A DNA stretch of 64,000 nt. Source: an uncultured SAR116 cluster alpha proteobacterium (GTDB taxonomy: Bacteria > Pseudomonadota > Alphaproteobacteria > Puniceispirillales > Marisalimonadaceae). The stretch covers positions 8,015 to 72,014 of the forward strand of contig CACBMD010000003.1 in NCBI GenBank assembly GCA_902539895.1, in the 5' to 3' direction. A program made the translations under genes and the position numbers. Positions 14,090 to 34,789 of this stretch are shown here, piece after piece. The notes below the pieces were generated by a model, which was given only the letters and a program-made list of their open reading frames with translations, was not told the origin of the DNA and ran no database searches. Positions within the stretch are counted from its first letter, which is position 1, and every line of letters begins with the position of its first letter.

Positions 14090-15418
14090 TTAAATTTTAT
14101 TTTCAATTAATTTAACATTTTTAATGCTGTTAATTGTATAACCATAACCAAGAGCTTTTATTCTCTTAATGGTTGTCTCTAACAATGACTTTTCTCTATC
14201 AACACGCTTTAACCAATCTATAATCTTAATATCAAACTCCTTACTATAAACAATCAATAGCATTATAGGCTCATGACTATTTTTGATATCAATTAAGAAA
14301 GCTTCGTTACTTTTAATCATGCCATTTACTATATCTGATTTCTTATTAGTATTTTGAATTCCTTTGTCCTCTAAATTAACATTAGAAAATTTTAATGCCC
14401 ACAAAAAAACTGTATCTACTCCAATGTTTAAGACCTCTAAGTTTAAATTACATTCATGATCTATAGACTTACTACCTGGTATACATTTTAATTTATTAGA
14501 TTCTAAATCATTATATGGAATAAAATTAATCCTCATTTGCTTATTGATTTCATTTGCCTGCAAGGTCTGTATGTAATCATAAAAATAAGCAACTACTCGT
14601 TCAGTAAAATTACCATATCTATACGTTTTTAAAGTCGTAAGTAATAAACTATAATTTTTATTGTCGTTTAAATTTAGTAAAGGCGAAGTTTTTTGCCAAA
14701 CATTATTGAACATAAGAGCAAATAAAATTGTTACAAAGATGATAGAAAGTAAACTAAGTGTTTTTTTTGATTTTTTAAAAAAAGATGGCCGCTTAGTTGG
14801 TTTTTTTAGTATGTTTTTTAAATTTAAATGATCAAATAGGCCATATAAATCATTAAAAAATAAAACTTTAATTAATTTAGTTTTTATAGCTTCTTTTAAG
14901 AATTCATTGTTTGGCAAAAGACTGTTAAAATCATCTTTATTTTGTATGCTTAATACGATGTGAACTTGAACTTCGTTTTTTATACAATTTTTTAAAAAAT
15001 TCATTGAGTTATAAATTTTTTGATCAAGGTAATTAATTTTTTTAATCTCTAAATTTGAATTGATAGTGCCACTTGCCCAAATAATTTCTTCTGTTTTCTT
15101 TGTTAAAAGCTGATTTTCATTTGAGAAATTTAAAATGTTATTTTTTAAAAAAATATGTGCTATGGCAATTGCCAATTGCCAGCTTTTTCCATTATGAATT
15201 GGTTTTGTAATGTCTATCCTAAATGAAGGGTGCCCTACTAATTTTTCTATTATTCCAGTAGGGCTTTTAACAAAAGAATTGTAAAAAGGACTTATGGGCA
15301 AAGCTTCTAAATTATTATTTTCACATATAACTGAAGAAACTAAAGGGTCTTCTTTAACTATATCATTAATACCTACTACATTATTAGTAGTAGGTATAAT
15401 AACTGTATATTTTTTCAC
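14090..15418 (-). CDS. Bitopic membrane protein with N-terminal Lon-like (S16) protease domain
   Basis: NGKSWQLAIAIA (S79), ASGTI...LDQK (K134), IVLSIQNKDD; TM at ~221-237; uncharacterised C-terminal domain. Confidence 0.6.
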   Translation of the reverse strand: MKKYTVIIPTTNNVVGINDIVKEDPLVSSVICENNNLEALPISPFYNSFVKSPTGIIEKLVGHPSFRIDITKPIHNGKSWQLAIAIAHIFLKNNILNFSNENQLLTKKTEEIIWASGTINSNLEIKKINYLDQKIYNSMNFLKNCIKNEVQVHIVLSIQNKDDFNSLLPNNEFLKEAIKTKLIKVLFFNDLYGLFDHLNLKNILKKPTKRPSFFKKSKKTLSLLSIIFVTILFALMFNNVWQKTSPLLNLNDNKNYSLLLTTLKTYRYGNFTERVVAYFYDYIQTLQANEINKQMRINFIPYNDLESNKLKCIPGSKSIDHECNLNLEVLNIGVDTVFLWALKFSNVNLEDKGIQNTNKKSDIVNGMIKSNEAFLIDIKNSHEPIMLLIVYSKEFDIKIIDWLKRVDREKSLLETTIKRIKALGYGYTINSIKNVKLIENKI

Positions 15419-15930
15419 CTTATAAAAATCTCTGCATTGGGATTTGTAATAAGGTTAAAAAAGTTATCAGATTTTTTTATCAAAATTTGCGCCTGTTTGT
15501 CATTTAAAATAGGGAGCTTTATGCATTCACTTTCATTGTCGCAGATAACATATAAATTTGAAAGTTGTAATTCTATATCATTAATAATTTTAAAAATTAA
15601 ATAATGTTCATCCTCATTTTTATTAGATTTAACTATCTCAATTTTAAATTCATTTGATGATCTAGAAAAGACCCTATCATTAGATGCAGCATTTAATTTT
15701 GTTTGATAAATACAACCTTCATTTTTGAGTATTAAAAAATAAGCATCAGAAAAACCTTTGTTTTTCAAAAATTCATTAATTTGATTCTGGTATTTAAGTG
15801 GGTTTAAGTAAACATCCCAAACCATATTTATATTTAATTTTGGTTTCAGATCTGATTTAGAGTAATTTTTAGATAAATTTAAATAATTTAATGCCAAAAA
15901 AGTGTCTGAGATTTTGTCTTTATTATCCAC
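15415..15930 (-). CDS. Hypothetical cytoplasmic protein (candidate protease substrate or anti-sigma-like)
   Basis: Probable GTG start at 15930 with AAGGAG RBS; coupled to both neighbours; helical-looking N-half, LNAAS linker, beta-rich C-half. Confidence 0.6.
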   Translation of the reverse strand: MDNKDKISDTFLALNYLNLSKNYSKSDLKPKLNINMVWDVYLNPLKYQNQINEFLKNKGFSDAYFLILKNEGCIYQTKLNAASNDRVFSRSSNEFKIEIVKSNKNEDEHYLIFKIINDIELQLSNLYVICDNESECIKLPILNDKQAQILIKKSDNFFNLITNPNAEIFIR

Positions 15931-17650
15931 CTTTAACTCCTTCTTTAGAATATAATAATTTAAAATGTTCAAAGAATATTACCTTATCTTCATTAAATTT
16001 AGATTTAAGATCATTTACATTTAAATTCAAAGCATCAATGAACTTGCACAAAAATTCTTTGATAATTGAAAGAATATTATAAATTTCAGTTATAGCATTA
16101 ATATTTTTTTTATTATTTACATTAAAATCAAAACCACTTCTTCTAAAAGACATAGTATTTTTTTTAGTCTTACTTAAGAAATTGAAAAAACTATTAAAGT
16201 CAGACTGAAATTTACTTGAGTTAATAAAAATTTTAAATTCTTTATATAAATTAGCTATTTTCTCCTCTCTATATTCATCTGGAGTGAAATTCTCATTTTT
16301 CTTAATGAGTTCTTTTGAAAGCGAAAGGTCATCTAAATTAGGATCAAAATCAAGAATTTCTTTTTTCTGATTTATAAAGTTTTCAAATAAAATAAGTTCA
16401 TCCTTATTTAAATAATTTCTAATTATATGTAAAATTTTTGGAGCCTCAAAGGACCAAAGTTTATAAAATAAAATTTCGCAAATAAAAGAATTATTATTTA
16501 TAATATTTTGTATTATTTGGGTTTGGTCATAATACATTGAAATATCAGAATATGACTGAAAAAAATCATTCAAATCTAATTTTTTTCTTCTTCGGTTTTC
16601 TATTATCTTGTTTTGAATATTTCCAAATACACAAATCCTTAAAATGGTTAAAGGGAGTTTCATAGATAAATCATTATATTTGGAAAAAACTTCTATCTCA
16701 CCGAGCTCTTTTTTCTTTAGAATATTTATTTTATCAGACTGCAAAATAGAGAGTTTTTTAAAATATTTTGATAACACATGCTCATCATTTGAAGTGATTT
16801 GTTCAAGAAAATCATTTAATGTATCCTCTGATATTGTATTTGAAGAGTTTTCTTCATTCATCTGGTATCTTGAAGAGAGGTTATATTTTTCATTAAGCTC
16901 TATTGATTTTTTGTAGCTGAGACATAACTCAGAGGCTAAAGTAAACGTTTTGATTAATAAATCTTTGTCTTCTAAACTAAAAGCAACCCAAAAATCAAAA
17001 ATGAAATCATCTGATATATCCTCGGATACAATAATATGATTTTCATCTCTGTTTTTTTTTATAATAAAATTTCCGATTGCTGCTGAAAAACTTTGTAAAT
17101 GAGATGTTGGTAGTAAGTTTTTTAAATAAAAATAAACTTTTTTAGAAACATTGTTTGAAATTTCTTGTAAGTCTTTTTGTGTGCAAGAATTATTGACAGA
17201 TTGATCTAATAATAAAATCTCTTCAAGACCTAAAATTTCTTCTAAAAATTCTATAATTATAATTAAATTTGATATTCTAGAGTAAGAAATATCAAAATTA
17301 TAACTATTAAGTTTTAGCGTAAATTTATTTGATATTTCTTGGCTGTTTATAAAATTTATTTTTTTTATCTTTTTTAAAAGATCATTACTTTCCATAACCA
17401 TAATTTTGTAAAAAGGTAAATTATTTTGACTTAAATATTTTAAAAAATTACATAATTCATAAATTACTGACCCATAATTATGGGTTATAAAAAGTGCAAA
17501 TACTTTGTTAACTTCTTTTAAATTTGGATACTTTAAAGATCCAGTTAAAGTAGTTTTATTTTTTATGTTTTCAAAATGATTTAAAATAACCTCATCTGGT
17601 TTTTGAAGGGTAAATTCTTTCCAGTCATCAAAAAAAAGTTTATCACGCAT
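15923..17650 (-). CDS. Large hypothetical helical cytoplasmic protein
   Basis: 575 aa ORF; no signal peptide, TM or recognisable family. Confidence 0.7.
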   Translation of the reverse strand: MRDKLFFDDWKEFTLQKPDEVILNHFENIKNKTTLTGSLKYPNLKEVNKVFALFITHNYGSVIYELCNFLKYLSQNNLPFYKIMVMESNDLLKKIKKINFINSQEISNKFTLKLNSYNFDISYSRISNLIIIIEFLEEILGLEEILLLDQSVNNSCTQKDLQEISNNVSKKVYFYLKNLLPTSHLQSFSAAIGNFIIKKNRDENHIIVSEDISDDFIFDFWVAFSLEDKDLLIKTFTLASELCLSYKKSIELNEKYNLSSRYQMNEENSSNTISEDTLNDFLEQITSNDEHVLSKYFKKLSILQSDKINILKKKELGEIEVFSKYNDLSMKLPLTILRICVFGNIQNKIIENRRRKKLDLNDFFQSYSDISMYYDQTQIIQNIINNNSFICEILFYKLWSFEAPKILHIIRNYLNKDELILFENFINQKKEILDFDPNLDDLSLSKELIKKNENFTPDEYREEKIANLYKEFKIFINSSKFQSDFNSFFNFLSKTKKNTMSFRRSGFDFNVNNKKNINAITEIYNILSIIKEFLCKFIDALNLNVNDLKSKFNEDKVIFFEHFKLLYSKEGVKGG

Positions 17651-17687
17651 TTAAAAACCTGACTAAAATTAACAGCAAATTCATATA

Positions 17688-18299
17688 TTAATATATATTA
17701 TTAAGTTTGTAATTGTTATATATCTCTAACCAATCGTCAATTTTTGAAACTAACAAATCAATTTCTGACTTTTCTTTAGCTTGAATTAAGTTGAATTTGG
17801 CTTGAATTAAATCTTTTTTCTTTCTTAAAGAAGGCGCCTTATTAGCTAATTCATTAGATTTTTTTAATACTTTAACAACATAAGGATAAGTTGCAGGAAT
17901 AATTTTTACGTTAGGCCACTTTCCAACTGCTGAGCCACCATTGTAATGAGATAAAGCCACTCCAATATTCCCCTTATACTTTTTAATTAATTGGTCTAAA
18001 AATTTGATACCTACTTTTATATTAATAATTGGGTTAAATAAATCCTTTCTTTTCACACCAAATTCTAATAACCCTGTACGTGGCATTATTTGCATAACAC
18101 CTATAGCACCTTTTTTACTAACTGCATCTGGCCTTAGATTAGATTCAACTTTGGCTACAGCAATTGCCAAAGCAGGAGTTACATATTCTGAAACCCTTGC
18201 ATTTTCAATCAGCAACATTTTTATATATGGACGATTATAATTTTTGGCATTCGCTAAAGAAGTTAATAAAATTAGACTTATTGTTAATACAAATTTCAT
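17688..18299 (-). CDS. Lytic transglycosylase (SLT domain)
   Basis: Signal peptide; VES...AVS.KGA.G.MQIMP and ALSHYNGG motifs. Confidence 0.92.
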   Translation of the reverse strand: MKFVLTISLILLTSLANAKNYNRPYIKMLLIENARVSEYVTPALAIAVAKVESNLRPDAVSKKGAIGVMQIMPRTGLLEFGVKRKDLFNPIINIKVGIKFLDQLIKKYKGNIGVALSHYNGGSAVGKWPNVKIIPATYPYVVKVLKKSNELANKAPSLRKKKDLIQAKFNLIQAKEKSEIDLLVSKIDDWLEIYNNYKLNNIY

Positions 18300-18724
18300 G
18301 ATAATTTATCCTCTTTGATTGATATATTCTCTAAAGCATCATTCCATTGTTGGTTTTGCTCAGCAACTTGCAGGTCAAGACCTTGAAAAATTTTTTTAAT
18401 TTCAAATAATTCTTTGACTGACATTTCTTTTGGTACAGCTAATGTGTATCTGTCGGTTTGTTTACCCTGATTTTCTAATCTCCAAATTTTTAGATTTTGG
18501 TCATAAAAATTTTTATTGTGATAAAAAACTAATATTCTTTTTTTATCTTTAATAATTGAAGATTTTGAATTTATTGAAATTTTATCACTTTCAATTGATT
18601 TAAATTGTTTTTGAGAAAGTGCAAAAATTGTTAAGACCATTAAAGCAAAAAATGCCATTGATAATGCTAAAGCAACTTCAGTTAGAGGGTTATGTGAGTA
18701 ATCCGAGTTCATTTTTTTCTCCAT
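18296..18724 (-). CDS. Divergent ExbD/TolR/MotB-like single-TM protein
   Basis: NPLTEVALALSMAFFALMVL: N-terminal TM with an acidic residue (E16), then a small soluble domain. Confidence 0.55.
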   Translation of the reverse strand: MEKKMNSDYSHNPLTEVALALSMAFFALMVLTIFALSQKQFKSIESDKISINSKSSIIKDKKRILVFYHNKNFYDQNLKIWRLENQGKQTDRYTLAVPKEMSVKELFEIKKIFQGLDLQVAEQNQQWNDALENISIKEDKLS

Positions 18725-18759: not shown

Positions 18760-19629
18760 TTAATTAAATTTCTTTCTGTTGCCCTTTGACCCTATAGAAT
18801 TAAATGAAGGGAATTTTTTAACAAAAATATTGTTATCAGAAACCGATAACTCATAATCCTTATCTATATTAAGATCTATGTCTGATAATGAAATCACTAA
18901 CCATTTTTTTAATTTCAATAAATCAGTAGATGAATAGTAAGACCAGCTATTCTGCTTGCCAAAACTTTGTTCATTAGTAATTTTGATAAATCCAGGAAAT
19001 TCATTTACCATTATATCTGTTAAATAGATGATATCTTTATCTTTAAAATTATAAAATTTAAAATTATAAACTTTCGAAATATTACTATAATTTTTCTGTT
19101 CTTTTAACTTTGCATCCAGAATTCTTAAGATACTACTCCCAAGTTGGTCAGACAATAGAATAACTTTTTCACTTAATAAAAGGTTTTCACAAATATCATC
19201 ACAATCCTTAGGAAACTTGATAATTTTCCTTGGAGTAGACCAAGTAGATATATAATTTTTTGTTTGGGTATTGTATATTTCTGAAGAAATATAAATACTT
19301 GATGAGAGTTTATTGATACGCTGATAATTTAGCTTCAAAGTAATCAATAATTCAGCATCAATAATGTCACTTAAAATATCCGAATTTTCAAGGAGCTTAT
19401 CTAAATTTTTTGTGTTTTTTAAATCTAAATTTTTGATAGACCTATTGCCATCTTTAATTACAAAACCGCTTTGATTAAGAGTTGATTGTATAGATATTTT
19501 GATAGATTTGTTGTTTTTATTTTCTCCTAATACATATAATGAAATTAATGGTTTTTGCTCAGCAGAATAAGCATTCATTGATATCAATGATAAAAATATT
19601 ATTAAAAATGTAGCTTTTATTTTATTCAT
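18760..19629 (-). CDS. Exported hypothetical protein, paralog of 19631..20386
   Basis: Start moved to 19629, giving signal peptide MNKIKATFLIIFLSLISMNAYSA; DIMVNEFPGFI...YYS...KLKKWL. Confidence 0.7.
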   Translation of the reverse strand: MNKIKATFLIIFLSLISMNAYSAEQKPLISLYVLGENKNNKSIKISIQSTLNQSGFVIKDGNRSIKNLDLKNTKNLDKLLENSDILSDIIDAELLITLKLNYQRINKLSSSIYISSEIYNTQTKNYISTWSTPRKIIKFPKDCDDICENLLLSEKVILLSDQLGSSILRILDAKLKEQKNYSNISKVYNFKFYNFKDKDIIYLTDIMVNEFPGFIKITNEQSFGKQNSWSYYSSTDLLKLKKWLVISLSDIDLNIDKDYELSVSDNNIFVKKFPSFNSIGSKGNRKKFN

Positions 19630-19630
19630 C

Positions 19631-20386
19631 TTATTCACAAACATAAAAATATTTTGATTTGCTGAGTTTGTTGATATCAATTTTTGATTTATAAACCTTA
19701 ATAAAAAAATCATCTGGACTAAAACCATATTCATTGATAGTCAGACCAAGCCATTTTTTAATTTTAAATATTGTAGAGACAGTATAGTAAGCTAATTTAG
19801 TTTTACTTTGTGTATTATGACCTTCAGTTTCCATGTGAATGAAACCTGGAAACTCTTTTTCCATCACATCAATAATTTTGTTACTCTCACATGAGTTGAA
19901 ATAATTTAGAGAGATGACGATTTTCTTTTCTTTTTTATCAACAAATTGTTTGTCGCCTATTACAAATTGGATACCGTTTTTCTTCATCTGCTCTAAGCTA
20001 GAGCTCACTAACATTTTAGCAATTGTTTCTACTTCCAAAAGGTTAGATTTTTTTTCAAAAGCAAGTGATCTAGAAAAAGCATATGTTTTATTATTAACTT
20101 TATTAACAATCTTTAATGTTGGGATTAAAAGCCAATCTTGATTGATGTTTTTATTTAACAAATCGAAATAAACTAGATATTCAGACTTTTTGATATCTAA
20201 AATTGTGACATAATTTTCATTAGAATTTTTCTTAGTTATAATCTGATTAGATAAAAACTCTTTTTCTAAAAAAATTAAAAAAGTTTTATTTAATAAATTG
20301 GTTTCTTGAGAGAATGAAGGGGTAACAAATAATAACAAAAGAATTGTAAAAATATTCTTGAAAAAAAAATTCTTAATCATTTTCAT
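19631..20386 (-). CDS. Exported hypothetical protein, paralog of 18760..19629
   Basis: Signal peptide; DVMEKEFPGFI...YYT...KIKKWL. Confidence 0.7.
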   Translation of the reverse strand: MKMIKNFFFKNIFTILLLLFVTPSFSQETNLLNKTFLIFLEKEFLSNQIITKKNSNENYVTILDIKKSEYLVYFDLLNKNINQDWLLIPTLKIVNKVNNKTYAFSRSLAFEKKSNLLEVETIAKMLVSSSLEQMKKNGIQFVIGDKQFVDKKEKKIVISLNYFNSCESNKIIDVMEKEFPGFIHMETEGHNTQSKTKLAYYTVSTIFKIKKWLGLTINEYGFSPDDFFIKVYKSKIDINKLSKSKYFYVCE

Positions 20387-20613: not shown

Positions 20614-21753
20614 ATGAAAAAATTTATTTTCCTTTCAATTATGATATTCTTTCCTTTGAACGCTTTTGCTGTATGTAATGCTGACACAACATTTGATGCG
20701 ACTGTGACTGTTGACATACCAAAACCAAAAGGTTTTTTTTCTGGAACTCCCAAACCATCACCTGATGTAATTTCTGAAGGTATCACAAAAGCTAAACAAA
20801 GTGTTTTACAAAAATTTATTAGTAAGTGTGTTACTGAAAGAAATAAATTAGACCAATATCTTAAAGTGAAAGAAACTATAGATTCACAAACTGATAGTTT
20901 TGTTAACGTTACTAAGTCAAAACAAGATCAAAAAGATCTTAAACTAAACGTTAAAGTCAGAGCCACAGTTAATGGTAAACTTTTTGAGTCCCTTCTATAT
21001 GGCGGAAATAACACAGCAAGTAGTTCTAATTCAGGTAAAAAGCGTAAAAGAATGGTTTCATTTTTTATAGCTAGAAAAGCAGAATCAACTGATACAAAAG
21101 TATATGATAATAAAGTTGCCAAAATTCAAAAAGTTGAAAAAGGAGTAGCTGCTGAAAAAAATGCTACTACAGACGGAACTACGACTGTCGTGAATAAAGA
21201 AGCCAGTGCTTTTAAAAAGACAGTTACAGGTGGAAGCACAGAAATAAAACAAAGATCTTCGGAAAGAGCATGGGTTATAATGCCTTCATCTGACTTGAAT
21301 AATAACATAGCCAAAACATTAAGTAACAATGGTTTTAGAGGTATTAGATATCCGTCATTTGCAAAAAGATGTGGTGCTCCTCCAAGTGATATAATTGAAG
21401 AAGAATTTTCTACACTGGATAAATTAACTGATGACACCGAAGCTGAAATATTTGATGCTATTGCCGAAAATGATAGATGTAACAAAATCATTGGTTTCGT
21501 TGCTATTGGTACCATTAATGTGAATACTGCACTTGTAGACAAAGTTAGTGGAAACTTTACAGTATCAGCAAGTATAAGAGTAGACATATCCCAAATAATT
21601 GATGGATTTCCTGAAGTAGTAGCATCTATCGGTCCAGTTCAGGTAAGATCACAAGGATTAGAAGACAATGAAGCTGAAAAAAATGCTTTAATAAAAGCTG
21701 GTGAGAAAGCTGCACAGGAAATTGTAAATAGCTTAAAAGCCCAAGGCATATAA
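20614..21753 (+). CDS. Exported protein, possibly FlgT/CsgG-like fold
   Basis: Signal peptide; VKVRATVN; C-terminal SQGLEDNEAEKNALIKAGEKAAQEIVNSL. Confidence 0.6.
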   Translation: MKKFIFLSIMIFFPLNAFAVCNADTTFDATVTVDIPKPKGFFSGTPKPSPDVISEGITKAKQSVLQKFISKCVTERNKLDQYLKVKETIDSQTDSFVNVTKSKQDQKDLKLNVKVRATVNGKLFESLLYGGNNTASSSNSGKKRKRMVSFFIARKAESTDTKVYDNKVAKIQKVEKGVAAEKNATTDGTTTVVNKEASAFKKTVTGGSTEIKQRSSERAWVIMPSSDLNNNIAKTLSNNGFRGIRYPSFAKRCGAPPSDIIEEEFSTLDKLTDDTEAEIFDAIAENDRCNKIIGFVAIGTINVNTALVDKVSGNFTVSASIRVDISQIIDGFPEVVASIGPVQVRSQGLEDNEAEKNALIKAGEKAAQEIVNSLKAQGI

Positions 21754-28069: not shown

Positions 28070-29356
28070 CTAAAAGGTATTTACCTGAGGAAGTGCATTC
28101 AAAACAAGCTCTGATTGGTTATACACTTCTTCAGGTTTATCGGTATCTAACTGAAATATTGCAGAGCTGTACCGAGATTGAAAACTATCCCCTGATATGA
28201 TTTTATTTCTATAATTTTTATCTTTGATACTTAAAAATGCTCTTTCTAATAGAGCTTCAGAAAGTTCACAAACATTAGCAGCATCTGAACGCATAATTTT
28301 ATTTTTGTTTTCAATATAAGTCTTTTCAGCAAAGAAATATTGTTTGTATAAAACTTTTTCATCAAAATTATCATATATTTCAATTTCTATAGCCATGCCT
28401 AAGCTAACTTTTAACAGAGATTTAGCATTTTCTTGGAATGTTTCTTCTGCAAATTCCCATCCTTGATGATAAATTTTGATTTCTAAATCAGGGTTGGGTA
28501 ATTTTACATCAATTTTATTATAGAGCTTAGTTGTAAAATCAAACCTACTAATTGTTGTATTTGTTAAAGCAGCATTCATCATAAACGGTAAAATTGGACT
28601 TTCTAATTTATAGCCGAAAGCAAAAGTTGATGACTGACCTAAAAAACTAATAAACTGATTTTTTGAAAGACCAAAATTATTAAAAAGATTATTACCATCT
28701 TCAGCAAGACTTACTAAGACCACCCTTGGTTTTTTGCCTTCCCATTCTTTTTTCTTAAATGACTGTTTACCAACCATAATTCTAAATTGTTCTAACATTG
28801 TAGATTGTGGATTTGATGAATTATAAAAAGCTCTTTTCATAAGCTCTGCTTTTATATCAGGGTACTTAGCTTTTTCTTTTTCAGATATCAAATTAGTAGA
28901 AATTGCTCTTACTGGAACAGAAGATATTATAACCCTATCGTAAACATTATATAATAAACTTTGCCCAAAGGAATACATCAGGTAAGCAGTTTTATTAATC
29001 TCATTATCTTTGAACTCTCCAAAATCAAATTCAGCAGAGAAACCGTATGTAAAAGCTAAAGTAGCATCCTTAGCGAAACCTTCTAATCGTATATCAATAT
29101 TTTTAATGGGTTTTTCTTTTAAGCTTTTGTTTAAGTAAGAATTAAAATATGAAGCATCATCAACATCACTTTTAAACTCTGAAGCAACTTTAGTTATTGG
29201 CATTAATGTTTCTATTTCATTGAACGGAAGCAAGAAACTTACCCCTGCCCAATTAACAGGCCCTGAATAATTTTCTGCATAACTTTTAAAGGAAAAAGAA
29301 CTCGCAAGGATTGTTGACGTTAAAAGTTTAGTAAAATTTCTTCTTTTTATTTTCAC
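28070..29356 (-). CDS. Hypothetical protein with twin-arginine (Tat) signal peptide
   Basis: Probable GTG start at 29356 gives MKIKRRNFTKLL...SYA. Confidence 0.65.
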   Translation of the reverse strand: MKIKRRNFTKLLTSTILASSFSFKSYAENYSGPVNWAGVSFLLPFNEIETLMPITKVASEFKSDVDDASYFNSYLNKSLKEKPIKNIDIRLEGFAKDATLAFTYGFSAEFDFGEFKDNEINKTAYLMYSFGQSLLYNVYDRVIISSVPVRAISTNLISEKEKAKYPDIKAELMKRAFYNSSNPQSTMLEQFRIMVGKQSFKKKEWEGKKPRVVLVSLAEDGNNLFNNFGLSKNQFISFLGQSSTFAFGYKLESPILPFMMNAALTNTTISRFDFTTKLYNKIDVKLPNPDLEIKIYHQGWEFAEETFQENAKSLLKVSLGMAIEIEIYDNFDEKVLYKQYFFAEKTYIENKNKIMRSDAANVCELSEALLERAFLSIKDKNYRNKIISGDSFQSRYSSAIFQLDTDKPEEVYNQSELVLNALPQVNTF

Positions 29357-29385
29357 TATATTAGCCTGAAAGTTTAGACCAAATA

Positions 29386-30396
29386 TTAACATCTTTTATT
29401 TAATTGACTCAATAATATTTTATTAGATATTGATTTATTATTTATAACTAATTTATCTAAATAAAGTTTATTATTTTCAATTAAGTACTGACCTTGAATT
29501 TTTTTAAGTTTAGATTTATTACTTTTAGATATTTTTGATAAATACCCAATAATATAAGCATCAGTACTTTTATCAAAAATTCTTAAATGACGTCCCTTTT
29601 CATTATTAAGGTATTTTGTACTTATTTGTTTAATAATAGTATTTTCTTTATTTGAATAAACATTATTAGGCATCCTTACTATAGTAGAATATTTTTCTGT
29701 AAATTCATTTCTCTTAATTAAACCATTAATGCCAAATATCTGATTTTTCTTATTTAATAAAACAGTCTGACTGAATAAACATTCATTAAGAATTTTATAA
29801 ATTTTATCATGAGTTTTAGTTTTTAAAGGCCATCTAAATTCAATAATAAAATCATCTTTTATATTTTCTAAAATATTTTTGCCATCATCTATTAATTTAG
29901 ATTTATCAAATTTTATTAATTCTTTATTATTTTCATTTGCTTCAAACTTATCCTCATTAATTCTTAAAGAAGTTTTTTTAATAGGTTTTATTGATATAGA
30001 TTTAATTTTGTTTTCTAAGGCAACAGGTTGCAAGATTGAAAGATTATTTTGTTTTTGATTTAAATTTTGAGCTCTTAAATTATTATAATCGATAGGATTT
30101 ATTTTTACACTCTGAAGATCTTTATTTTTAAGAACATTTTTTAAAGGCGATAACTTTAAATTTTTCTTATTTTCAAAACTAAGATTTCTTTTTTCCAACT
30201 CTGGAAGAGTGACTTCTTTAATTATTAGATCATTTTTAAAGTTTACCGTCATTACGTTATTTGAGACTTTATTTTTCTTTTCTATTTCTACCTTTTTTTT
30301 AAAAAACGGTTGGATTGAGTTTAAAATAATATAAGTAACAAATATAATTGATGCAGCTATATTAAAATATATAGTGGTTTGGTTAATACTTATCAT
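29386..30396 (-). CDS. N-terminally anchored protein with K/N-rich linker and C-terminal domain (TonB/TolA-like topology)
   Basis: Single N-terminal TM, low-complexity middle; directly downstream of the ExbB-like gene and its neighbour. Confidence 0.55.
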   Translation of the reverse strand: MISINQTTIYFNIAASIIFVTYIILNSIQPFFKKKVEIEKKNKVSNNVMTVNFKNDLIIKEVTLPELEKRNLSFENKKNLKLSPLKNVLKNKDLQSVKINPIDYNNLRAQNLNQKQNNLSILQPVALENKIKSISIKPIKKTSLRINEDKFEANENNKELIKFDKSKLIDDGKNILENIKDDFIIEFRWPLKTKTHDKIYKILNECLFSQTVLLNKKNQIFGINGLIKRNEFTEKYSTIVRMPNNVYSNKENTIIKQISTKYLNNEKGRHLRIFDKSTDAYIIGYLSKISKSNKSKLKKIQGQYLIENNKLYLDKLVINNKSISNKILLSQLNKRC

Positions 30397-30947
30397 TATT
30401 TCAATGTGGTAATGTGAAGTAATTCCATATCAATAATCAAGTCAGCGAGTGCATTCTCCCTTTCATGTAGTGACATGAATTTTTTATTAGAAACTTCAAC
30501 TTTCTGGTTTATCTTTTCTTTTTCATAATCTTTACCATCATCAATTTTAACTTTTTCTGTAAATGATTTCTTATTTTTAGCTTCTAGAATGTCGTTTATA
30601 ATTTTTTTAATCTCATTATCTTTTGGTTTTTGTTCTTTTTCTTCTTTGATATCTAATTTAGCTATTTTTGAGTTTTCTTGAACCTTAACTTGATTTTTAT
30701 CTTGATTTAGATTTTTGTTGTTATTTCTTTTTTTAATTTCATCAGAAGTTTTTTTAATTTGATTATCCTCTATTAATTTATTACTTGATGTGGCTTTTTT
30801 AATGGTTTTAACTACTTCTTCTTTAGAAAGATTACTTATTTTATCTTTTGTATTTGAAAACCATTGATTAAAATTTTCATTGGGTTTAGAGGTTAATAAA
30901 TAACCAAGAGAACATAAAACAATTACGTTAAATATTAAAAATTTCAT
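30396..30947 (-). CDS. N-terminally anchored Lys/Glu-rich hypothetical protein
   Basis: N-terminal TM, charged linker, C-terminal FMSLHERENALADLIIDMEL helix. Confidence 0.6.
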   Translation of the reverse strand: MKFLIFNVIVLCSLGYLLTSKPNENFNQWFSNTKDKISNLSKEEVVKTIKKATSSNKLIEDNQIKKTSDEIKKRNNNKNLNQDKNQVKVQENSKIAKLDIKEEKEQKPKDNEIKKIINDILEAKNKKSFTEKVKIDDGKDYEKEKINQKVEVSNKKFMSLHERENALADLIIDMELLHITTLK

Positions 30948-30955: not shown

Positions 30956-31483
30956 CTATTTGCTTAATAGTTTTTGAGACGGTTTAAGGGAATGAACTCT
31001 ATAATGTTCATAAATCATAATTAAAATACTTCTTAACAAGCCTGACAAAGGTAAACCTATTACAGAAGTCATAAAAGCCATGCTAAATTGTTGGGTTAAT
31101 TTAGAAATGGTCTGATTGATTGTATCAATATCTAATTTAGATGTTGATAAATCCCCGATGCCAAGGCTAATTCCAAGAAGAGTGTAAGTCAAAGCTAAGG
31201 TTGAAATCAAATTAGATACTTGCAAACCTGTTTCAAACCAAAACTTTCTTCTTCTATTTTCACAATTATTAATATTTATAATACTTATTATAGCTATTAA
31301 AGTTAGGAAAGTTGTTATAATTAAAAAGCTATAGCCTAATGTCGACACCAACCATTCAAATATGAAAGAAGGGTTAGTATTTGAATAACCTACATATAAA
31401 AATAGTATTAAAACTATACCACCTAAAAATATACTTATGGCTTGAGAAGATTGGTTAAAGCCAATTAATAAATAATTAATCAT
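30956..31483 (-). CDS. Divergent MotA/TolQ/ExbB-family ion-channel subunit
   Basis: TLALTYTLLGISLGIG and FSMAFMTSVIGL match the last two TMs of the family, including the conserved Thr residues. Confidence 0.7.
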   Translation of the reverse strand: MINYLLIGFNQSSQAISIFLGGIVLILFLYVGYSNTNPSFIFEWLVSTLGYSFLIITTFLTLIAIISIININNCENRRRKFWFETGLQVSNLISTLALTYTLLGISLGIGDLSTSKLDIDTINQTISKLTQQFSMAFMTSVIGLPLSGLLRSILIMIYEHYRVHSLKPSQKLLSK

Positions 31484-31863
31484 CTTCTAGATACCCTAGT
31501 ACTCATTATATTATCTGTTGTTAAACCCATTTTTTCAAACCATGTAATTGATAATGGTTTATTTCTTTCAAATGAATTATGAACCAAGAAAGTTAAATCA
31601 AAATCCTCAAAAGCCCTTATTGTATGGGTATCTGGATTTTTGTTTATTTGTTTGTTATTTATTGTCATTCTTTCTAAATCTAATAATTTCATTTTTGATT
31701 TTTCTAATTTTTTCTTTCTTACTGCTATTGAAATTGTCTTATCTAAAACGAGATTTAATGTCTTTGCTCTTTCTCTTTCAAGAGGCCCAATTGGGCTTGC
31801 ATTAGCATATGAGGAAGCAACAAATGAAATTAATAAAGTTATTTTGGCTATTGATTTATACAT
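31480..31863 (-). CDS. Small exported hypothetical protein
   Basis: Start moved to 31863 (MYKSIAK...SYANA signal peptide). Confidence 0.65.
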   Translation of the reverse strand: MYKSIAKITLLISFVASSYANASPIGPLERERAKTLNLVLDKTISIAVRKKKLEKSKMKLLDLERMTINNKQINKNPDTHTIRAFEDFDLTFLVHNSFERNKPLSITWFEKMGLTTDNIMSTRVSRR

Positions 31864-31876
31864 TTTTTTTCCTTTC

Positions 31877-32749
31877 TTATAATTTTGTAAACATATCAAT
31901 TACGTTTTCTGGATCATTATAATTTTCACCTGAGGTAAAAGTTCCATCTAAATTTTGTTTTATACTAGAGACGTTCTCCGCCAAATTCATGGCATCTAGA
32001 ACCACAATTTTGGCCATATAACTCATAATCTGCTCTTTCATTTCTAAAACAGCAATTTCCGTTTCGATGTTGTATATATAATTGGCAATCGTATCTAATT
32101 TGTTATCAGAGTTATTTGAAAGTACACTCTTTTCATTCATTGGGTGATTTTTTATCGCTATTTTAAGTTTTTCTATTGCATTTTTGTTAGTTTCATATTG
32201 CTTAAAATATTTACTTCTTTCGTTAATATTTAAAGATGTTTTCTCTATAATTTTTAAATCAAGTCTCTGCGCCCTTTCTAGAGCTTTACTTTTATTATTC
32301 AAAAAAGCACTTTGATTTGTCTTATTTTTATTATTGTATTTGATATTATTTTTTATTTTTTCAAAGAAAGCTTTTTTAGTCTCAAGTTTCTGTTTCTTCA
32401 TGATGATCAGGTTATTCATGTCCTTAATATAATCTCGTTTATTAAGAATGATCTGGTGTTTGATTTCTAAAGTTTCATCTTTTGAGGCGTTAGGTAAGAA
32501 AGAATTAAGTTCATTGATTTTATCAATTTTACTTTTTATTTTATTATCTGTATCTCTCAAATTTAAGGCTAATTCAGAAGTTTTAAAATCATTATTTAAA
32601 ACTTTATTCAAATGCTGAGGTGGCAAAACAAACATTTTCTCAACAATTTGAGGTTTCCAGTCCCATCCACTTACATTAGCTAATGCTGGAAATGATCCAA
32701 ATAAAGCTGGGGTGAAAATCAAAAGTAATTTTATAGTATCATTTTTCAT
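31877..32749 (-). CDS. Exported coiled-coil hypothetical protein
   Basis: Signal peptide; long heptad-like helices. Confidence 0.65.
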   Translation of the reverse strand: MKNDTIKLLLIFTPALFGSFPALANVSGWDWKPQIVEKMFVLPPQHLNKVLNNDFKTSELALNLRDTDNKIKSKIDKINELNSFLPNASKDETLEIKHQIILNKRDYIKDMNNLIIMKKQKLETKKAFFEKIKNNIKYNNKNKTNQSAFLNNKSKALERAQRLDLKIIEKTSLNINERSKYFKQYETNKNAIEKLKIAIKNHPMNEKSVLSNNSDNKLDTIANYIYNIETEIAVLEMKEQIMSYMAKIVVLDAMNLAENVSSIKQNLDGTFTSGENYNDPENVIDMFTKL

Positions 32750-32761
32750 TTTTAGTTCCTC

Positions 32762-33313
32762 TTAGTTTTTAGACCAATAATTAATACGTTTTAACTCAGA
32801 TCTAATAACTCGATTATTATTTGTAAGAGCAAATTTCCCTGAAATTGTGGGAGCACTATGATTTAGGATTGTCTCAATATTCTCAATAAAACTTGAGCCA
32901 TCTGTATAAATTAAATCTTTTTCAAAAGTATTTTTGTAATCTTTTAGATTTAATGACGCCTGAATTAAATTGCCTGCCTTAATGTAGTTTTGAATACTAA
33001 GTGCAATGTTCTGCATCCTTTCAACCTCGTTGATCATGTATGGATTGCCTTTAATCAGCAAATCACAATCACTTAAAATTTTGGCACTTTTATTATATAA
33101 ACTATCTGCTTCTTCATTCTTAGTGGCAGCAATCCTGTCAAAATTTCTTCCATCTTCAATGCAGCTAGTATAGTTTCTTATATCATTACTAAGTTTTACA
33201 TCTTGTAATTTTGTTTCTATAAAAGCGCTCTGTTGATTATCGATAATATTACAACTCATGAGAGATAAACTTGTAATACCTACCAATAAAAAATTTTTAT
33301 AAATATTTTTCAT
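32762..33313 (-). CDS. Lipoprotein of unknown function
   Basis: Lipobox LMSC after a hydrophobic stretch. Confidence 0.7.
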   Translation of the reverse strand: MKNIYKNFLLVGITSLSLMSCNIIDNQQSAFIETKLQDVKLSNDIRNYTSCIEDGRNFDRIAATKNEEADSLYNKSAKILSDCDLLIKGNPYMINEVERMQNIALSIQNYIKAGNLIQASLNLKDYKNTFEKDLIYTDGSSFIENIETILNHSAPTISGKFALTNNNRVIRSELKRINYWSKN

Positions 33314-33332: not shown

Positions 33333-33800
33333 TTAGTTTAAATAAATAATGTCGTGCACAGAGTATGGCGTAGAAGATTGAATATTGATTATTCCTCTTT
33401 TTGTCCTAACTCTAAGATTATAATGAGAAAATTGATTAACTCTTTTATTTCTATAGAAGGTCTTCTCTTGACATGTCTCTGAGGAATAATTGGATGAGTT
33501 ATCAATTGCCATCATTGACCCAAATAAGGCGCCAATAGTGCCTGCTCCATGAACATCGCTTAATTTATTACCGATAACACTGCCTATTAATCCTCCAACT
33601 GCTATGTTGGCAAAGTTATTGGGATTTCTATGTCTGAATTTTTCACATACAACCCTAGTATATGGCTCTTGGTGATTAGATGTAATATTTACCGGATTTA
33701 CATCAATAACAACACCCCATCTAGATTTAAATTGTCCAGCAAGGGATAAACTTGCATTAGAAAATATGATTGTTAAAGTAATAATTATTAATTTTTTCAT
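33333..33800 (-). CDS. Glycine-zipper 2TM domain exported protein
   Basis: IAVGGLIGSVIGNKL...AGTIGALFGS. Confidence 0.78.
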   Translation of the reverse strand: MKKLIIITLTIIFSNASLSLAGQFKSRWGVVIDVNPVNITSNHQEPYTRVVCEKFRHRNPNNFANIAVGGLIGSVIGNKLSDVHGAGTIGALFGSMMAIDNSSNYSSETCQEKTFYRNKRVNQFSHYNLRVRTKRGIINIQSSTPYSVHDIIYLN

Positions 33801-33833
33801 TGTTAATCTCTTTATTAGTTTTTATTAATCTTG

Positions 33834-33858
33834 TTATGGAAATTTTTGTAAGATTTTT
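33834..33858 (-). promoter_or_regulatory. Shared promoter-like motif AAAAA-N14-CCATAA, copy 3
   Basis: 33 nt upstream of the ATG at 33800. Confidence 0.42.
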
Positions 33859-33874
33859 GTTTGGTTTAAAAATA

Positions 33875-34789
33875 ATGAATAAATTTTTTTATTTTTTATT
33901 ATTAATTTTTTTATGTTTTCAAATGAGTATTGCTCAAGCTTATGAAGGTAATAAAAAAATTGAGAGCTTTTCAAAATCCAAAAATTTTTTAAAGAATATC
34001 CACCAAGAAAATCCAGTAACTTTCTATTGGCAATGTACATATAATTTTAATTAACCAAATTGGGAAAGCTGGTTTTCGTCCTAGAAAAGATAAAAAAGGG
34101 CTACTAGAATTGAATGGGAACATATTTTACCAGCATCACATTTTGGTATAAAATATGATACCTGGAAAAATAAACACCCTGATTGTATTAACACTAAAGG
34201 GAAAAAGTTTATAGGTAGAAAATGTACTGAAAAGGTTCATAAATTATATAGATTTATGCAAGCTGACCTATATAACCTTCAACCAGCTATTGGTTAAGTT
34301 AATGGATTAAGGAGTAATTACCAAATTGGAGAGATCGACGGAGAAGTTAGAGAATTTGGTAAATGTGATATAGAGATAAAAAATAAAAAAGTTGAACCTG
34401 CTCCTAAAATACGTGGTGATATAGCAAGAACATATTTATATATGGAATATGCTTATCCAAAATATGTAATTTTTAACCAAAATTTAAAAATTCTTATTAA
34501 AAAATGGGATGAAACTGACCCAGTCGATGAATGGGAATGCTTTAGAGCAGAGAAAATTAAAAAAATTCAAAGTAATGTAAATAAAATTTTAAATAAAAGA
34601 TGCCAAAATCAAAATAAGTTAAATGTTAGTAATTCAAATCTTAATGAAATGCAAAATACAACAATAATTTATAAAAATAATATTCAGTCAGACGATTTAA
34701 TAAAACAAAATAATGTTATTAAACAGAATTCTTATATTAGTAATAAAGGGTCATTTAAAGGCAAAGGATCTGATGATGCGTTAAAATAA
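33875..34789 (+). pseudogene. endA: Endonuclease I (EndA/Dns/Vvn family) pseudogene
   Basis: Signal peptide, SFSKSK, RIEWEHILPASHFG, ADLYNLQPAIG*VNGLRSNY, RGDIARTYLYM, DPVDEWEC; stops at 34052 and 34295 plus compensating frameshifts at ~34070 and ~34095. Confidence 0.88.

What the first reader, a model, noticed from the sequence alone, without database searches (positions are those of the whole stretch)
14090..34789. Candidate undescribed envelope-spanning machine: divergent ExbBD/MotAB-like motor, CsgG/FlgT-like proteins, lytic transglycosylase, nuclease and protease regulator
Seen: about 20 tightly packed genes between two dioxygenase genes. All but two (15415 and 15923) have a signal peptide, lipobox or TM anchor, and most have no recognisable family. 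The recognisable parts are a MotA/TolQ/ExbB-like channel (30956), an ExbD-like single-TM protein (18296), two anchored linker proteins (29386, 30396), an SLT (17688), CsgG/FlgT-like domains (21769, probably 20614), a lipoprotein, a glycine zipper, a Sel1-like protein and an EndA nuclease. Known: ExbBD/TolQR/MotAB are ion-driven motors; CsgG and the Vibrio H-ring proteins FlgT/FlgO/FlgP form outer-membrane-associated rings; dedicated SLTs open peptidoglycan for trans-envelope assemblies. No curli subunit, flagellar, pilus, secretion-ATPase or TonB-receptor gene is recognisable here. Inference: an ion-motive-force-powered, ATPase-free envelope complex for secretion, surface display, macromolecule uptake or envelope remodelling that fits no named system I recognise.
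Basis: partly seen in the sequence, partly recalled or inferred. Interest (0 to 1): 0.92.

Follow-up and report, generated by a model that had tools for sequence, protein, structure and literature searches.

The report
Undescribed stator-type envelope gene cluster
This 21-kb block is a real, conserved but unnamed set of cell-envelope genes in marine bacteria: a proton-motor-like operon with its own cell-wall cutter and membrane-tethered protease, joined here to a second ring-protein module, and nobody knows what it does.

Summary
Window 14090-34789 carries about 21 tightly packed genes, almost all exported or membrane-anchored. Pfam and NCBIfam recognise only the SLT and a fragment of endonuclease I.

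The block is two modules, not one.

Module 1 has 11-12 genes: p324, a MotB-like protein with an invariant TM Glu, SLT, two cytoplasmic unknowns, a TM-tethered Lon-like Ser-Lys protease, a lipoprotein, a coiled-coil protein, a small periplasmic protein, a MotA/TolQ/ZorA-fold channel, and two TM-anchored proteins with Pro-rich linkers. In most of 77 other species it is a single same-strand operon. These are marine Alphaproteobacteria plus Alteromonadaceae, including cultured Terasakiella and Glaciecola. Here it is cut in two around module 2.

Module 2 is a relative of the uncharacterised Francisella FTT1537c-1540c operon: a FlgT/CsgG/LpoB-like protein and DUF6844 proteins related to PDB 4QVR. 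It occurs without module 1 elsewhere.

The EndA gene is a pseudogene here with four in-frame stops. It is intact in relatives, where its C-terminal tail co-varies with that of the DUF6844 protein.

A sister species has lost 14126-34867 in one deletion.

No described system fits (Tol-Pal, Ton, Zorya, curli, H-ring). I found no paper describing the operon. This scan noted the same system before on other genomes (e1-5071923, e1-2401731).

The parts
14090..15418 (-). A442: cytoplasmic Lon-like (S16) Ser-Lys protease domain without AAA+, one TM helix, periplasmic domain (DUF4384 in the Terasakiella homologue)
   Evidence: Profile A4 against PDB: the top 24 hits are all Lon proteases (LonB 1z0c E 7e-4). 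S79 and K134 are invariant. DUF4384 in L057, E 2e-12. Found in 47 loci.
15415..15972 (-). B185: small cytoplasmic protein of unknown family, always between C575 and A442
   Evidence: 47 loci. No Pfam, NCBIfam, PADLOC or PDB match.
15923..17650 (-). C575: cytoplasmic all-helical protein with no matched fold
   Evidence: 46 loci. Model pLDDT 84.4. No convincing match in pdb, atlas or pdb_via_wide; best Z 8.2.
17688..18299 (-). Exported SLT-family lytic transglycosylase with E-S, G-V-M-Q and Y-N-G-G motifs
   Evidence: Pfam SLT E 3e-23. 43 loci. Motifs read.
18296..18724 (-). MotB/ExbD-like candidate B subunit: one N-terminal TM helix with an invariant Glu16, plus a ~90-aa periplasmic domain
   Evidence: Alignment A7: E16, A18, L19, M23, F25 and F26 are invariant. 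40 loci, first or second gene of the operon. No profile link to TolR/ExbD.
18760..19734 (-). p324: exported protein; true start probably Met35 (~19632)
   Evidence: 21 loci, at the head of the operon. C-terminus is paralogous to 19631 (hhalign 86%).
19631..20386 (-). p251: exported paralogue of p324 (shared C-terminal EFPGFI region)
20614..21753 (+). p379: exported protein, first gene of module 2
   Evidence: Homologues in L024, L026, L032, L034, L067, L076 and G157.
21769..24522 (+). 917-aa fusion: DUF6844/FTT_1539c-like N-terminal half, CsgG/LpoB-like domain, then a TsaP/FlgT_C-like domain; ends in Trp
   Evidence: (hhalign 100% to the D6844-like family). These are two separate genes in L024 and G157.
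24526..24933 (+). p135: small exported protein
   Evidence: Conserved in the genus and in L026.
24943..26535 (+). 530-aa DUF6844-like protein, homologue of Francisella FTT_1539c (PDB 4QVR), with a Gly/Ser tail ending KGGFKGAGTGSSAFK
   Evidence: Profile A12 against 4qvr_A, E 5e-26. Tail read.
26557..28068 (+). p503: exported protein of module 2
28070..29392 (-). p440: periplasmic protein with a Tat-type RRxFxK signal; rare family
   Evidence: 47 hits among 1.84 billion representatives. Consensus RRxFxK with invariant R17. Sits beside module 2 in 7 loci.
29386..30396 (-). TM336: N-terminal TM anchor, long linker (Pro-rich in high-GC homologues), ~170-aa conserved C-terminal domain with conserved Cys; TonB/TolA-like layout
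   Evidence: Alignment A10. 64 loci.
30396..30947 (-). TM183: TM helix from residue 1 (near-invariant F6, N7, Y16), Pro-rich/charged linker, conserved C-terminal helix
   Evidence: 68 loci.
30956..31483 (-). MotA/TolQ/ExbB/ZorA-fold channel subunit, 175 aa, 4 TM; invariant TYTLLGISLG and FS.AF..(T)..G.P motifs
   Evidence: Used as the anchor of all 77 loci.
31480..31899 (-). p139: small exported protein
   Evidence: 76 loci.
31877..32749 (-). cc290: exported coiled-coil protein
   Evidence: 73 loci.
32762..33313 (-). lip183: lipoprotein (lipobox LMSC)
   Evidence: 68 loci. Sequence.
33333..33800 (-). gz155: exported glycine-zipper protein
   Evidence: Sequence. Found in 4 close loci. A Gly-zipper family (Rick_17kDa_Anti) recurs in 13 other loci.
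33878..34789 (+). Endonuclease I (EndA/Dns-type) pseudogene: four in-frame stops; tail ends KGSFKGKGSDDALK

Best explanation
The block is a composite of two conserved envelope modules that are kept, and lost, together in this genus.

Module 1 comprises 14090-20386 plus 28070/29386-33800. It is an undescribed member of the family of ion-driven stator machines (Tol, Ton, Mot, Zorya). I infer the following working model:
- A pentamer-type channel subunit (30956) works with a single-TM partner that carries an invariant membrane Glu (18296).
- The motor drives two TM-anchored, linker-rich periplasm-spanning proteins (30396, 29386) laid out like TolA/TonB.
- These reach outer-membrane-side partners (lipoprotein 32762, 31877, 31480, and here 28070 and 33333) through a gap in peptidoglycan cut by the dedicated SLT (17688).
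- On the cytoplasmic face, the operon always carries a TM-tethered Lon-like Ser-Lys protease with a periplasmic domain (14090) and two unknown proteins (15415, 15923). I take these to be a regulated-proteolysis input or output of the machine.

Module 2 (20614-28068) is a FlgT/CsgG/LpoB-like plus DUF6844 periplasmic or outer-membrane scaffold, related to Francisella FTT1537c-1540c. It probably docks or displays proteins that carry a lineage-specific C-terminal tail, EndA among them.

Shown: gene content, conservation, folds, motifs, the deletion, the pseudogene.
Inferred: stoichiometry, ion use, contacts, and any output.
For: - Synteny. Most of the 77 loci from the genome-contig scan carry the same-strand order p324, MotB-like, SLT, C575, B185, A442, lip183, cc290, p139, MotA-like, TM183, TM336. 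Counts with L024 and L026 added (79 loci): MotA-like 79, p139 76, cc290 73, lip183 68, TM183 68, TM336 64, A442 47, B185 47, C575 46, SLT 43, MotB-like 40.
- Channel subunit. ZorA HMM hits at E 4e-6 to 8e-5. Model pLDDT 89.7. TolQ, ZorA, PomA, MotA and ExbB chains dominate the Foldseek top 50. VIA gives TolQ Z 11.8 (rmsd 3.0, 130 aa), ExbB Z 11.1, ZorA Z 9.7.
- B-subunit candidate. Invariant Glu16 in a near-invariant TM segment.
- Linker proteins. TM anchor, Pro-rich linker, conserved C-terminal part.
- Lon-like domain. The top 24 PDB hits are all Lon; S79 and K134 are invariant.
- SLT. Pfam E 3e-23.
- Module 2. PDB 4QVR at E 5e-26. Orthologues over the CsgG cut-off. TsaP/FlgT_C-like segment. 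Atlas look-alikes are CsgG, LpoB and FlgT.
- Tails co-vary. In the window...GGFKGAGTGSSAFK and ...GSFKGKGSDDALK. In G157...SGTWGDDTVEDDF and ...SGAWGDQQIKDNF.
- Lost as a unit. G011 aligns to the window up to 14125 and again from 34868, keeping 36 bp of the 3' end of 14090.
- Canonical TolQ/TolR and flagellar FlhA lie elsewhere in the genome.
Against: - Pfam MotA_ExbB does not match 30956.
- Profile-profile comparison of the family with TolQ, and of 18296 with TolR, found nothing. Neither did profile searches of PDB sequences.
- For helical bundles a Z of 10-12 can be a common arrangement (note).
- The acidic TM residue is Glu, not the canonical Asp.
- In the usual operon the A and B candidates are not adjacent.
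- No outer-membrane barrel, TonB box partner, Pal or TolB is present.
- Module 2 is next to module 1 in only 7 of 79 loci and exists without it in G157, a 100% complete genome. A working link between the modules is therefore unproven.
- EndA is dead here and truncated in G016.
- Patchy distribution: 11 of 31 genomes of the genus and 10 of 20 genera of the order. This fits an accessory or defence role as well.
Confidence: 0.55

Rival explanations
1. Module 1 is an anti-phage defence system of the Zorya type. A peptidoglycan-linked stator senses envelope damage and switches on cytoplasmic effectors, here the Lon-like protease with C575 and B185. In other genomes periplasmic caspase-like proteins would also act.
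For: - The only sequence-family hits of 30956 are ZorA models, and ZorA is the closest chain by identity (25% over 76 columns).
- Patchy presence among close relatives, and clean loss of the block.
- Caspase C14 and DUF4384 proteins are neighbours in 21-22 loci, and FGE-sulfatase and FHA proteins in Glaciecola. These domains are common in conflict systems (my knowledge).
Against: - 30956 has 175 aa and lacks the long ZorA tail.
- PADLOC finds no ZorB-E and no other defence protein among ten proteins of the block.
- The flanks are metabolic genes, not a defence island.
- Eleven to twelve genes, mostly periplasmic, in a fixed order across two classes is unusual for a defence system.
- The caspase-like proteins carry signal peptides.
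Confidence: 0.15
2. Module 1 is a trans-envelope signalling device rather than a transport or tethering machine. Outer-membrane or peptidoglycan state is relayed through the linker proteins and the motor to the tethered Lon-like protease, which cleaves a regulator (B185 or C575) to change gene expression.
For: - The protease has a periplasmic domain (DUF4384 in L057) and a cytoplasmic catalytic domain with an invariant Ser-Lys pair.
- It is always followed by the same two cytoplasmic proteins.
- Some loci have a histidine kinase and response regulator pair beside the operon.
Against: - No DNA-binding or sigma/anti-sigma domain was found in B185 or C575.
- The operon is lost without a visible replacement.
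- This reading overlaps with the best explanation and differs only in the output.
Confidence: 0.2
3. The FlgT/CsgG-like proteins and the stator-like pair are accessories of the flagellar motor, like the H and T rings and extra stators of Vibrio.
For: - The genus is flagellated: FlhA was found.
- Atlas look-alikes include FlgT, and there is a TsaP/FlgT_C-like segment.
- The SLT resembles flagellar lytic transglycosylases only as a general family.
Against: - No flagellar gene is in or beside the block.
- FlhA lies on another contig.
- A sister species keeps its flanks but lost the block.
- The channel subunit lacks the cytoplasmic torque-generating domain of MotA (175 aa).
- According to earlier scan notes that I did not check, similar FlgT-like operons occur in non-motile SAR86 and SAR11.
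Confidence: 0.05

Closest known systems
Tol-Pal and Ton systems (TolQ-TolR-TolA, ExbB-ExbD-TonB)
   Same: A small polytopic channel subunit whose model aligns best with TolQ and ExbB chains (Z 11.8 and 11.1). A single-TM partner with an acidic residue in the membrane. TM-anchored proteins with Pro-rich linkers and a conserved C-terminal part. No ATPase.
   Different: No sequence-profile similarity to TolQ or TolR. Glu instead of Asp. No TolB, Pal, CpoB, TonB_C or TonB-dependent receptor in the block. The canonical TolQR is elsewhere in the genome. The operon adds an SLT and a Lon-like protease module with two proteins that have no family or fold match.
Zorya ZorAB (PDB 8vvn, 8vvi, 8qyd)
   Same: The only HMM hits of 30956 are ZorA models. 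It has the highest local identity (25%) and the lowest rmsd (2.1-2.5 Å over 76 columns) with ZorA.
   Different: No long ZorA tail. No ZorB peptidoglycan-binding domain was recognised. No ZorC, ZorD or ZorE. The block has many periplasmic partners.
Francisella tularensis operon FTT1537c-FTT1540c (FTT_1539c = PDB 4QVR, Pfam DUF6844)
   Same: 24943 and the N-terminal half of 21769 are homologues of FTT_1539c (E 5e-26). They are paired with an LpoB/CsgG-like protein, as in L024 and G157.
   Different: The function of the Francisella operon is also unknown; a transposon mutant in FTT1538c was mildly attenuated (PMC4696196). Here the two genes are fused into a 917-aa protein with an extra paralogue. 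The set sits beside a stator operon and an endonuclease I gene.
FlgT (Vibrio H ring), TsaP, and CsgG/LpoB-fold lipoproteins
   Same: A CsgG/LpoB-type domain followed by a TsaP/FlgT_C-like domain in 21769.
   Different: No Pfam FlgT hit. No flagellar or pilus neighbours. No curli subunits or CsgE/F, so it is not a curli pore by content.
Lon proteases without AAA+ (LonB/LonC protease domains, PDB 1z0c, 4fwd)
   Same: Ser-Lys pair and the surrounding motifs are conserved. All top PDB hits are Lon.
   Different: No ATPase module. The domain is N-terminal and cytoplasmic, followed by a TM helix and a periplasmic domain.

Membership tests
MotA/TolQ/ExbB/ZorA channel (A) subunits | Match to the family's sequence models | tested here: inconclusive
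   Pfam PF01618 gave no hit at E 0.01. Six PADLOC ZorA models scored E 4e-6 to 6e-3, and NCBIfam ZorA_2 scored E 7e-6, far below its cut-off. hhalign against a TolQ alignment was negative.
MotA/TolQ/ExbB/ZorA channel (A) subunits | Fold: helical hairpin core with two long TM helices lining the pore | tested here: met
   Model pLDDT 89.7. The seven best VIA rows are all TolQ or ExbB chains (Z 10.3-11.8, 125-133 aa aligned, residues 37-175); ZorA follows at rank 9 (Z 9.7). Caveat: this Z range is not decisive for helical bundles.
MotA/TolQ/ExbB/ZorA channel (A) subunits | 5:2 assembly with a B subunit | not testable with these tools
MotB/ExbD/TolR (B) subunits | Single N-terminal TM helix with a conserved carboxylate | tested here: met
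   Glu16 is invariant in 18 sequences, inside a near-invariant TM segment. It is Glu, not the canonical Asp.
MotB/ExbD/TolR (B) subunits | Sequence or profile match to ExbD, MotB_plug or OmpA domains | tested here: not met
   No Pfam hit for the window or Terasakiella protein. The PDB profile search and hhalign against TolR were negative.
Tol-Pal system | TolB beta-propeller, Pal (OmpA-type lipoprotein) and CpoB beside TolQRA | tested here: not met
   No such domains in the 21 window proteins. The canonical TolQ/TolR pair lies on contig C10.
Zorya | ZorA with a long C-terminal tail, ZorB with a PG-binding domain, effectors ZorC/D, E or F/G | tested here: not met
   30956 is 175 aa and ends just after TM4. 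PADLOC found only the ZorA hits.
Curli secretion (CsgG with CsgA/B/E/F) | CsgG lipoprotein pore plus curli subunits and CsgE/F | tested here: not met
   Only a weak CsgG/LpoB-type domain, in orthologues of 21769 (24-26 bits). No curli subunit or CsgE/F family in the block.
Flagellar H ring (FlgT/FlgO/FlgP) | FlgT_N/M/C domains, FlgO and FlgP partners, flagellar gene context | tested here: inconclusive
   No Pfam FlgT hit. FlgT appears among Atlas look-alikes at 0.87, and there is a TsaP/FlgT_C-like segment. No flagellar neighbours.
Lon protease domain (MEROPS S16) | Ser-Lys dyad in the Lon proteolytic fold | tested here: met
   Profile A4: LonB, LonC and LonA protease domains fill the top 24 PDB hits. 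The best alignments shown (LonB 1z0c/1z0e) cover the Lys motif. S79 and K134 are invariant. No AAA+ module, so it is not a canonical Lon.
SLT lytic transglycosylase (family 1) | SLT domain with a catalytic Glu-Ser motif | tested here: met
   Pfam E 3e-23. The VES, GVMQ and YNGG motifs are read.
DUF6844 / FTT_1539c family | Full-length homology to PDB 4QVR | tested here: met
   Profile A12 against 4qvr_A: E 5e-26 over profile positions 25-489. The L024 homologue passes Pfam DUF6844. The window protein itself gives no Pfam hit.
Endonuclease I (EndA/Dns) | Intact Endonuclease_1 domain | tested here: not met
   Only profile positions 191-228 lie in an open frame. The frame has four stops. Homologues in G014, G006, L026 and G157 are intact.

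The most novel reading that the evidence does not exclude
Module 1 is a new class of ion-driven trans-envelope machine, on a par with Tol, Ton and Zorya. Its stator is mechanically coupled to a membrane-tethered, ATPase-less Lon-like protease and two proteins with no family or fold match. In Marisalimonas-type loci it powers a FlgT/DUF6844 outer scaffold that recognises a co-evolving C-terminal tail to display or release an extracellular nuclease.
Probability: 0.3. Interest if true: 0.88.

Novelty: new variant of a known kind. Interest (0 to 1): 0.74.

Why it matters
Only a handful of machines are known to use MotA/ExbB-type motors (flagella, Ton, Tol, gliding/T9SS, Zorya), and each new one opened a field. 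This operon has 11-12 genes, and apart from the SLT and the Lon-like domain none has a Pfam or NCBIfam family. It is found in at least 77 species of abundant marine bacteria and in a third of sampled Puniceispirillales genomes.

It is present in cultured strains: Terasakiella brassicae CGMCC 1.15254, Glaciecola sp. MH2013 and 2405UD65-10, and Brumicola blandensis W409. Its role can therefore be tested directly.

The tie to a Francisella operon with a solved but unexplained structure (4QVR), and the co-varying C-terminal tail shared with a secreted nuclease, give two concrete handles on a widespread envelope module of unknown function.

Tried and rejected
- Complex prediction of 30956 (4 copies) with residues 1-60 of 18296 (2 copies) gave no verdict: score 0.11 against a mark of 0.32.
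- hhalign of the MotA-like family against TolQ, and of the MotB-like family against TolR, found no similarity (the first attempt, used wrongly picked ORFs).
- Profile searches of PDB sequences with the MotA-like, MotB-like, C575 and B185 families found nothing.
- The C575 model had no convincing match in pdb, atlas or pdb_via_wide. The model is over 400 residues and its domains were not searched separately.
- Pfam and NCBIfam scans of 108 homologues from nine families found no consistent family.
- PADLOC on ten proteins gave only the ZorA hits.
- The search for homologous proteins with 24943 listed only near-identical proteins.
- The search for related loci with the p440 alignment failed for lack of a conserved stretch.
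- Pairwise hhalign among the families showed only p324~p251 and DUF6844-like~917 N-terminal half. Two broader runs timed out.
- Expression: twelve seawater or marine runs filed as RNA-Seq (eleven labelled metatranscriptomic; one may be DNA) hold 21-30% of the sampled words of 28070-33800.
- Literature searches for DUF6844, DUF4384, Marisalimonas and stator-family reviews found no description of this operon.

Full report
**What is there.** The window comes from a 29% GC alphaproteobacterial MAG (69% complete) of the genus Candidatus Marisalimonas, order Puniceispirillales. A sister genome, G006, is JAYPPH01 'Ca. Marisalimonas marina'. Between a TauD gene (13219-14067) and a PhyH gene (34871-35686) lie about 21 tightly packed ORFs.

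Pfam and NCBIfam recognise only the SLT domain of 17688 (E 3e-23) and the last 38 profile positions of endonuclease I in 34442. NCBIfam and PADLOC give sub-threshold ZorA (MotA/ExbB/TolQ) hits for 30956, at E 4e-6 to 8e-5.

**The nuclease is a pseudogene here.** One frame from 33878 to 34789 encodes a full endonuclease I with a signal peptide, but it is interrupted by stops at 34052, 34082, 34091 and 34295. The gene is intact in G014 (86% identity), G006, L026 and G157, and truncated in G016.

**Conservation.** The whole block is syntenic at 70-99% protein identity in same-genus genomes G006, G016 and G014. More telling are distant contigs. L026 (28% GC, 38% identity for 28070) has the same architecture, including an intact EndA. 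L024 (45% GC, 26% identity) has homologues of 20614, both halves of 21769, 26557, 28070, 29386, 30956, 31480, 31877 and 32762.

A scan of one genome per species, using the most conserved motifs of 30956, returned 77 loci:
- mostly marine Alphaproteobacteria (Rhodospirillales, Terasakiella, Magnetovibrio, Thalassospiraceae, Kiloniellales, Sneathiellales, Hyphomicrobiales MAGs);
- five Alteromonadaceae (Glaciecola, Paraglaciecola, Brumicola).

Iterated HMM searches of all window proteins against the ORFs of these loci show a strikingly fixed, single-strand operon: p324, MotB-like (18296), SLT (17688), C575 (15923), B185 (15415), A442 (14090), lip183 (32762), cc290 (31877), p139 (31480), MotA-like (30956), TM183 (30396), TM336 (29386).

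Loci holding each family (77 scan loci plus L024 and L026): 79, 76, 73, 68, 68 and 64 for the six genes around the channel; 47, 47, 46, 43 and 40 for A442, B185, C575, SLT and the MotB-like gene. Many loci are cut by contig ends.

So the two minus-strand gene sets of the window are the two halves of one operon. It was cut between A442 and lip183 and separated by an inverted second module.

**Module 2 is separate.** The families of 20614, 21769, 24943, 26557 and 28070 lie next to the operon in only 7 loci. In a sample of 300 alphaproteobacterial genomes only G157 matched 24943. G157 is 52% GC, from another family, and 100% complete. It carries 20614-like, CsgG-like, DUF6844-like, a small ORF, an intact EndA and a TonB-dependent receptor. 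It has no homologue of the channel subunit.

A profile of the 24943 family matches PDB 4QVR, Francisella FTT_1539c, at E 5e-26 over nearly its full length. The L024 homologue passes Pfam DUF6844, and its neighbour passes LpoB. Orthologues of 21769 pass the Pfam CsgG cut-off. The C-terminal part of 21769 has a TsaP/FlgT_C-like segment (E 8e-4). Atlas look-alikes are CsgG, LpoB and FlgT clusters.

The Francisella operon FTT1537c-1540c is itself uncharacterised (PMC4696196). Module 2 is therefore a member of a widespread, unstudied envelope module, not a curli system: no subunit genes are present.

**A co-varying tail.** In the window the DUF6844 protein ends ...GGFKGAGTGSSAFK and EndA ends ...GSFKGKGSDDALK. 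In L026 the two tails are again alike. In G157 the tails are different from these but again alike...SGTWGDDTVEDDF and ...SGAWGDQQIKDNF. The FlgT/CsgG-like proteins all end in Trp except L032 and G157, which ends ...DDWQ. The DUF6844 proteins end in Phe or Phe-Lys. This co-variation in two distant lineages is the best evidence that EndA belongs functionally with module 2, as a client that shares a docking or sorting signal.

**The motor-like core.** The family alignment of 30956 (72 sequences) has invariant TYTLLGISLG and FS.AF..(T)..G.P motifs in the last two TM helices. From my knowledge of the family, these resemble the LLGT..G and A..TT..GL....P signatures of MotA, ExbB and TolQ.

The AlphaFold model is confident (pLDDT 89.7). 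Foldseek gives no significant E-value, but its top 50 of 350,542 chains is dominated by TolQ, ZorA, PomA, MotA and ExbB. The second-look aligner puts TolQ (Z 11.8, rmsd 3.0, 130 residues), ExbB (Z 11.1) and ZorA (Z 9.7) on top.

Against this, Pfam MotA_ExbB does not match. Profile-profile comparison with 30 TolQ sequences is negative. I take the subunit to be a very divergent member of the fold family, nearest to ZorA in sequence.

The partner candidate 18296 has a near-invariant TM segment with an invariant Glu16, at the place where MotB, ExbD and TolR carry Asp (my knowledge). Nothing else links it to those families.

TM183 starts with a TM helix bearing near-invariant Phe6, Asn7 and Tyr16, then a Pro-rich linker and a conserved C-terminal helix. 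TM336 has a TM anchor, a long linker that is Pro-rich in high-GC homologues, and a conserved ~170-residue C-terminal domain. These layouts are those of TolA and TonB, without detectable homology.

**The cytoplasmic side.** A profile of the 14090 family finds only Lon protease domains in the PDB (LonB 1z0c E 7e-4, LonC, LonA; 24 of 25 hits). The best alignments shown (LonB) cover the Lys motif, and S79 and K134 are invariant. There is no AAA+ module. A TM helix and a periplasmic domain follow; in Terasakiella that domain is DUF4384.

C575 folds confidently (pLDDT 84.4) into an all-helical protein with no convincing structural relative. B185 has no match at all.

**Other recurrent neighbours elsewhere.** These are not in the window:
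- a lipoprotein family after TM336 (44 loci);
- exported DUF4384 proteins (22 loci);
- exported caspase C14 + SH3 proteins (21 loci);
- glycine-zipper proteins (13 loci);
- OmpA-type proteins (11 loci);
- in Glaciecola, FGE-sulfatase and FHA proteins in place of the MotB-like and SLT genes.

**Distribution and loss.** The channel family is in 38 of 121 sampled Puniceispirillales genomes, 10 of 20 genera, and 11 of 31 genomes of the own genus. Near-complete genomes without it exist.

In G011, whose TauD is 98% identical, TauD and PhyH are 104 bp apart. The alignment runs to window 14125 and resumes at 34868. G011 thus keeps 36 bp of the 3' end of 14090, so 14126-34867 was deleted in one event. 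The block is dispensable and behaves as a unit in this genus.

**Comparison with known systems.** Canonical TolQ/TolR and flagellar FlhA are elsewhere in the genome. Tol-Pal, Ton, Zorya, curli and the H ring each fail at least one defining feature (see Membership tests). I found no paper describing the operon.

This scan has met the same stator operon before on other genomes (e1-5071923, e1-2401731), and FlgT/LpoB/DUF6844-type modules as well (e1-2803019, e1-5022470, e1-4068801). My results were obtained independently and agree with them.

**Verdict.** This is a real, conserved, undescribed stator-type envelope system, joined here to a second unstudied envelope module and a decayed nuclease gene.
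- The mechanism proposed is an inference from folds, motifs and layouts: an ion-driven motor, TolA/TonB-like transducers and outer partners, with a tethered protease module.
- The output is unknown.
- Defence and signalling remain live alternatives.

Noticed in passing
window 33878-34789: The endonuclease I gene is a pseudogene with in-frame stops at 34052 (TAA), 34082 (TAG), 34091 (TAA) and 34295 (TAA). It is intact in G014, G006, L026 and G157, and truncated to ~92 codons in G016.
   Followed up: yes
window 26485-26535 and 34742-34789; L021 (G157) 9700-9751 and 11030-11074: The C-terminal tails of the DUF6844-like protein and of EndA resemble each other within a genome and differ between lineages: ...FKG.G....A[FL]K here against ...SG.WGD....D[DN]F in G157. 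The FlgT/CsgG-like proteins end in Trp in all loci but L032 and G157.
   Followed up: partly
window 29290-29392 (N-terminus of 28070): The p440 family has a twin-arginine type signal (consensus RRxFxK, invariant Arg17), suggesting export in the folded state. The family is very rare: 47 hits among 1.84 billion representatives.
   Followed up: partly
window 14090-14125 and 34868; L164 (G011:C12) about 1565-1640: A sister species lacks 14126-34867 but keeps 36 bp of the 3' end of gene 14090 between TauD and PhyH. This is a deletion scar rather than an empty insertion site.
   Followed up: yes
window 19632-19734: ORF 18760 as listed overlaps 19631 by about 100 bp. Its signal peptide starts at Met35, so the real start is probably near 19632.
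   Followed up: no
L050 1-4142 (Glaciecola sp. MH2013); L062, L075: In three Alteromonadaceae loci the MotB-like and SLT genes were not found. In L050, the one examined, an FGE-sulfatase-domain protein and an FHA-domain protein precede C575 instead. Paraglaciecola (L087) keeps the MotB-like and SLT genes.
   Followed up: partly
L036 475-2094 and 14096-15634, and 20-odd other loci: Exported caspase (Peptidase_C14) + SH3_3 proteins and exported DUF4384 proteins recur beside the operon in 21-22 loci. They are absent from the window.
   Followed up: partly
G000:C26:294-521 (outside the window); also G006:C5:355692, G016:C9:74270: A further small ORF (~160 aa) matches Pfam MotA_ExbB weakly (31 bits) and is conserved in the genus. 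ORFs of 154-172 aa in a sister genus match the channel-family profile at E ~1e-4. This may be a second small stator-like family.
   Followed up: no
window 28068-28070: The convergent genes 26557 (+) and 28070 (-) end within 2 bp of each other, with no room for a terminator between them.
   Followed up: no
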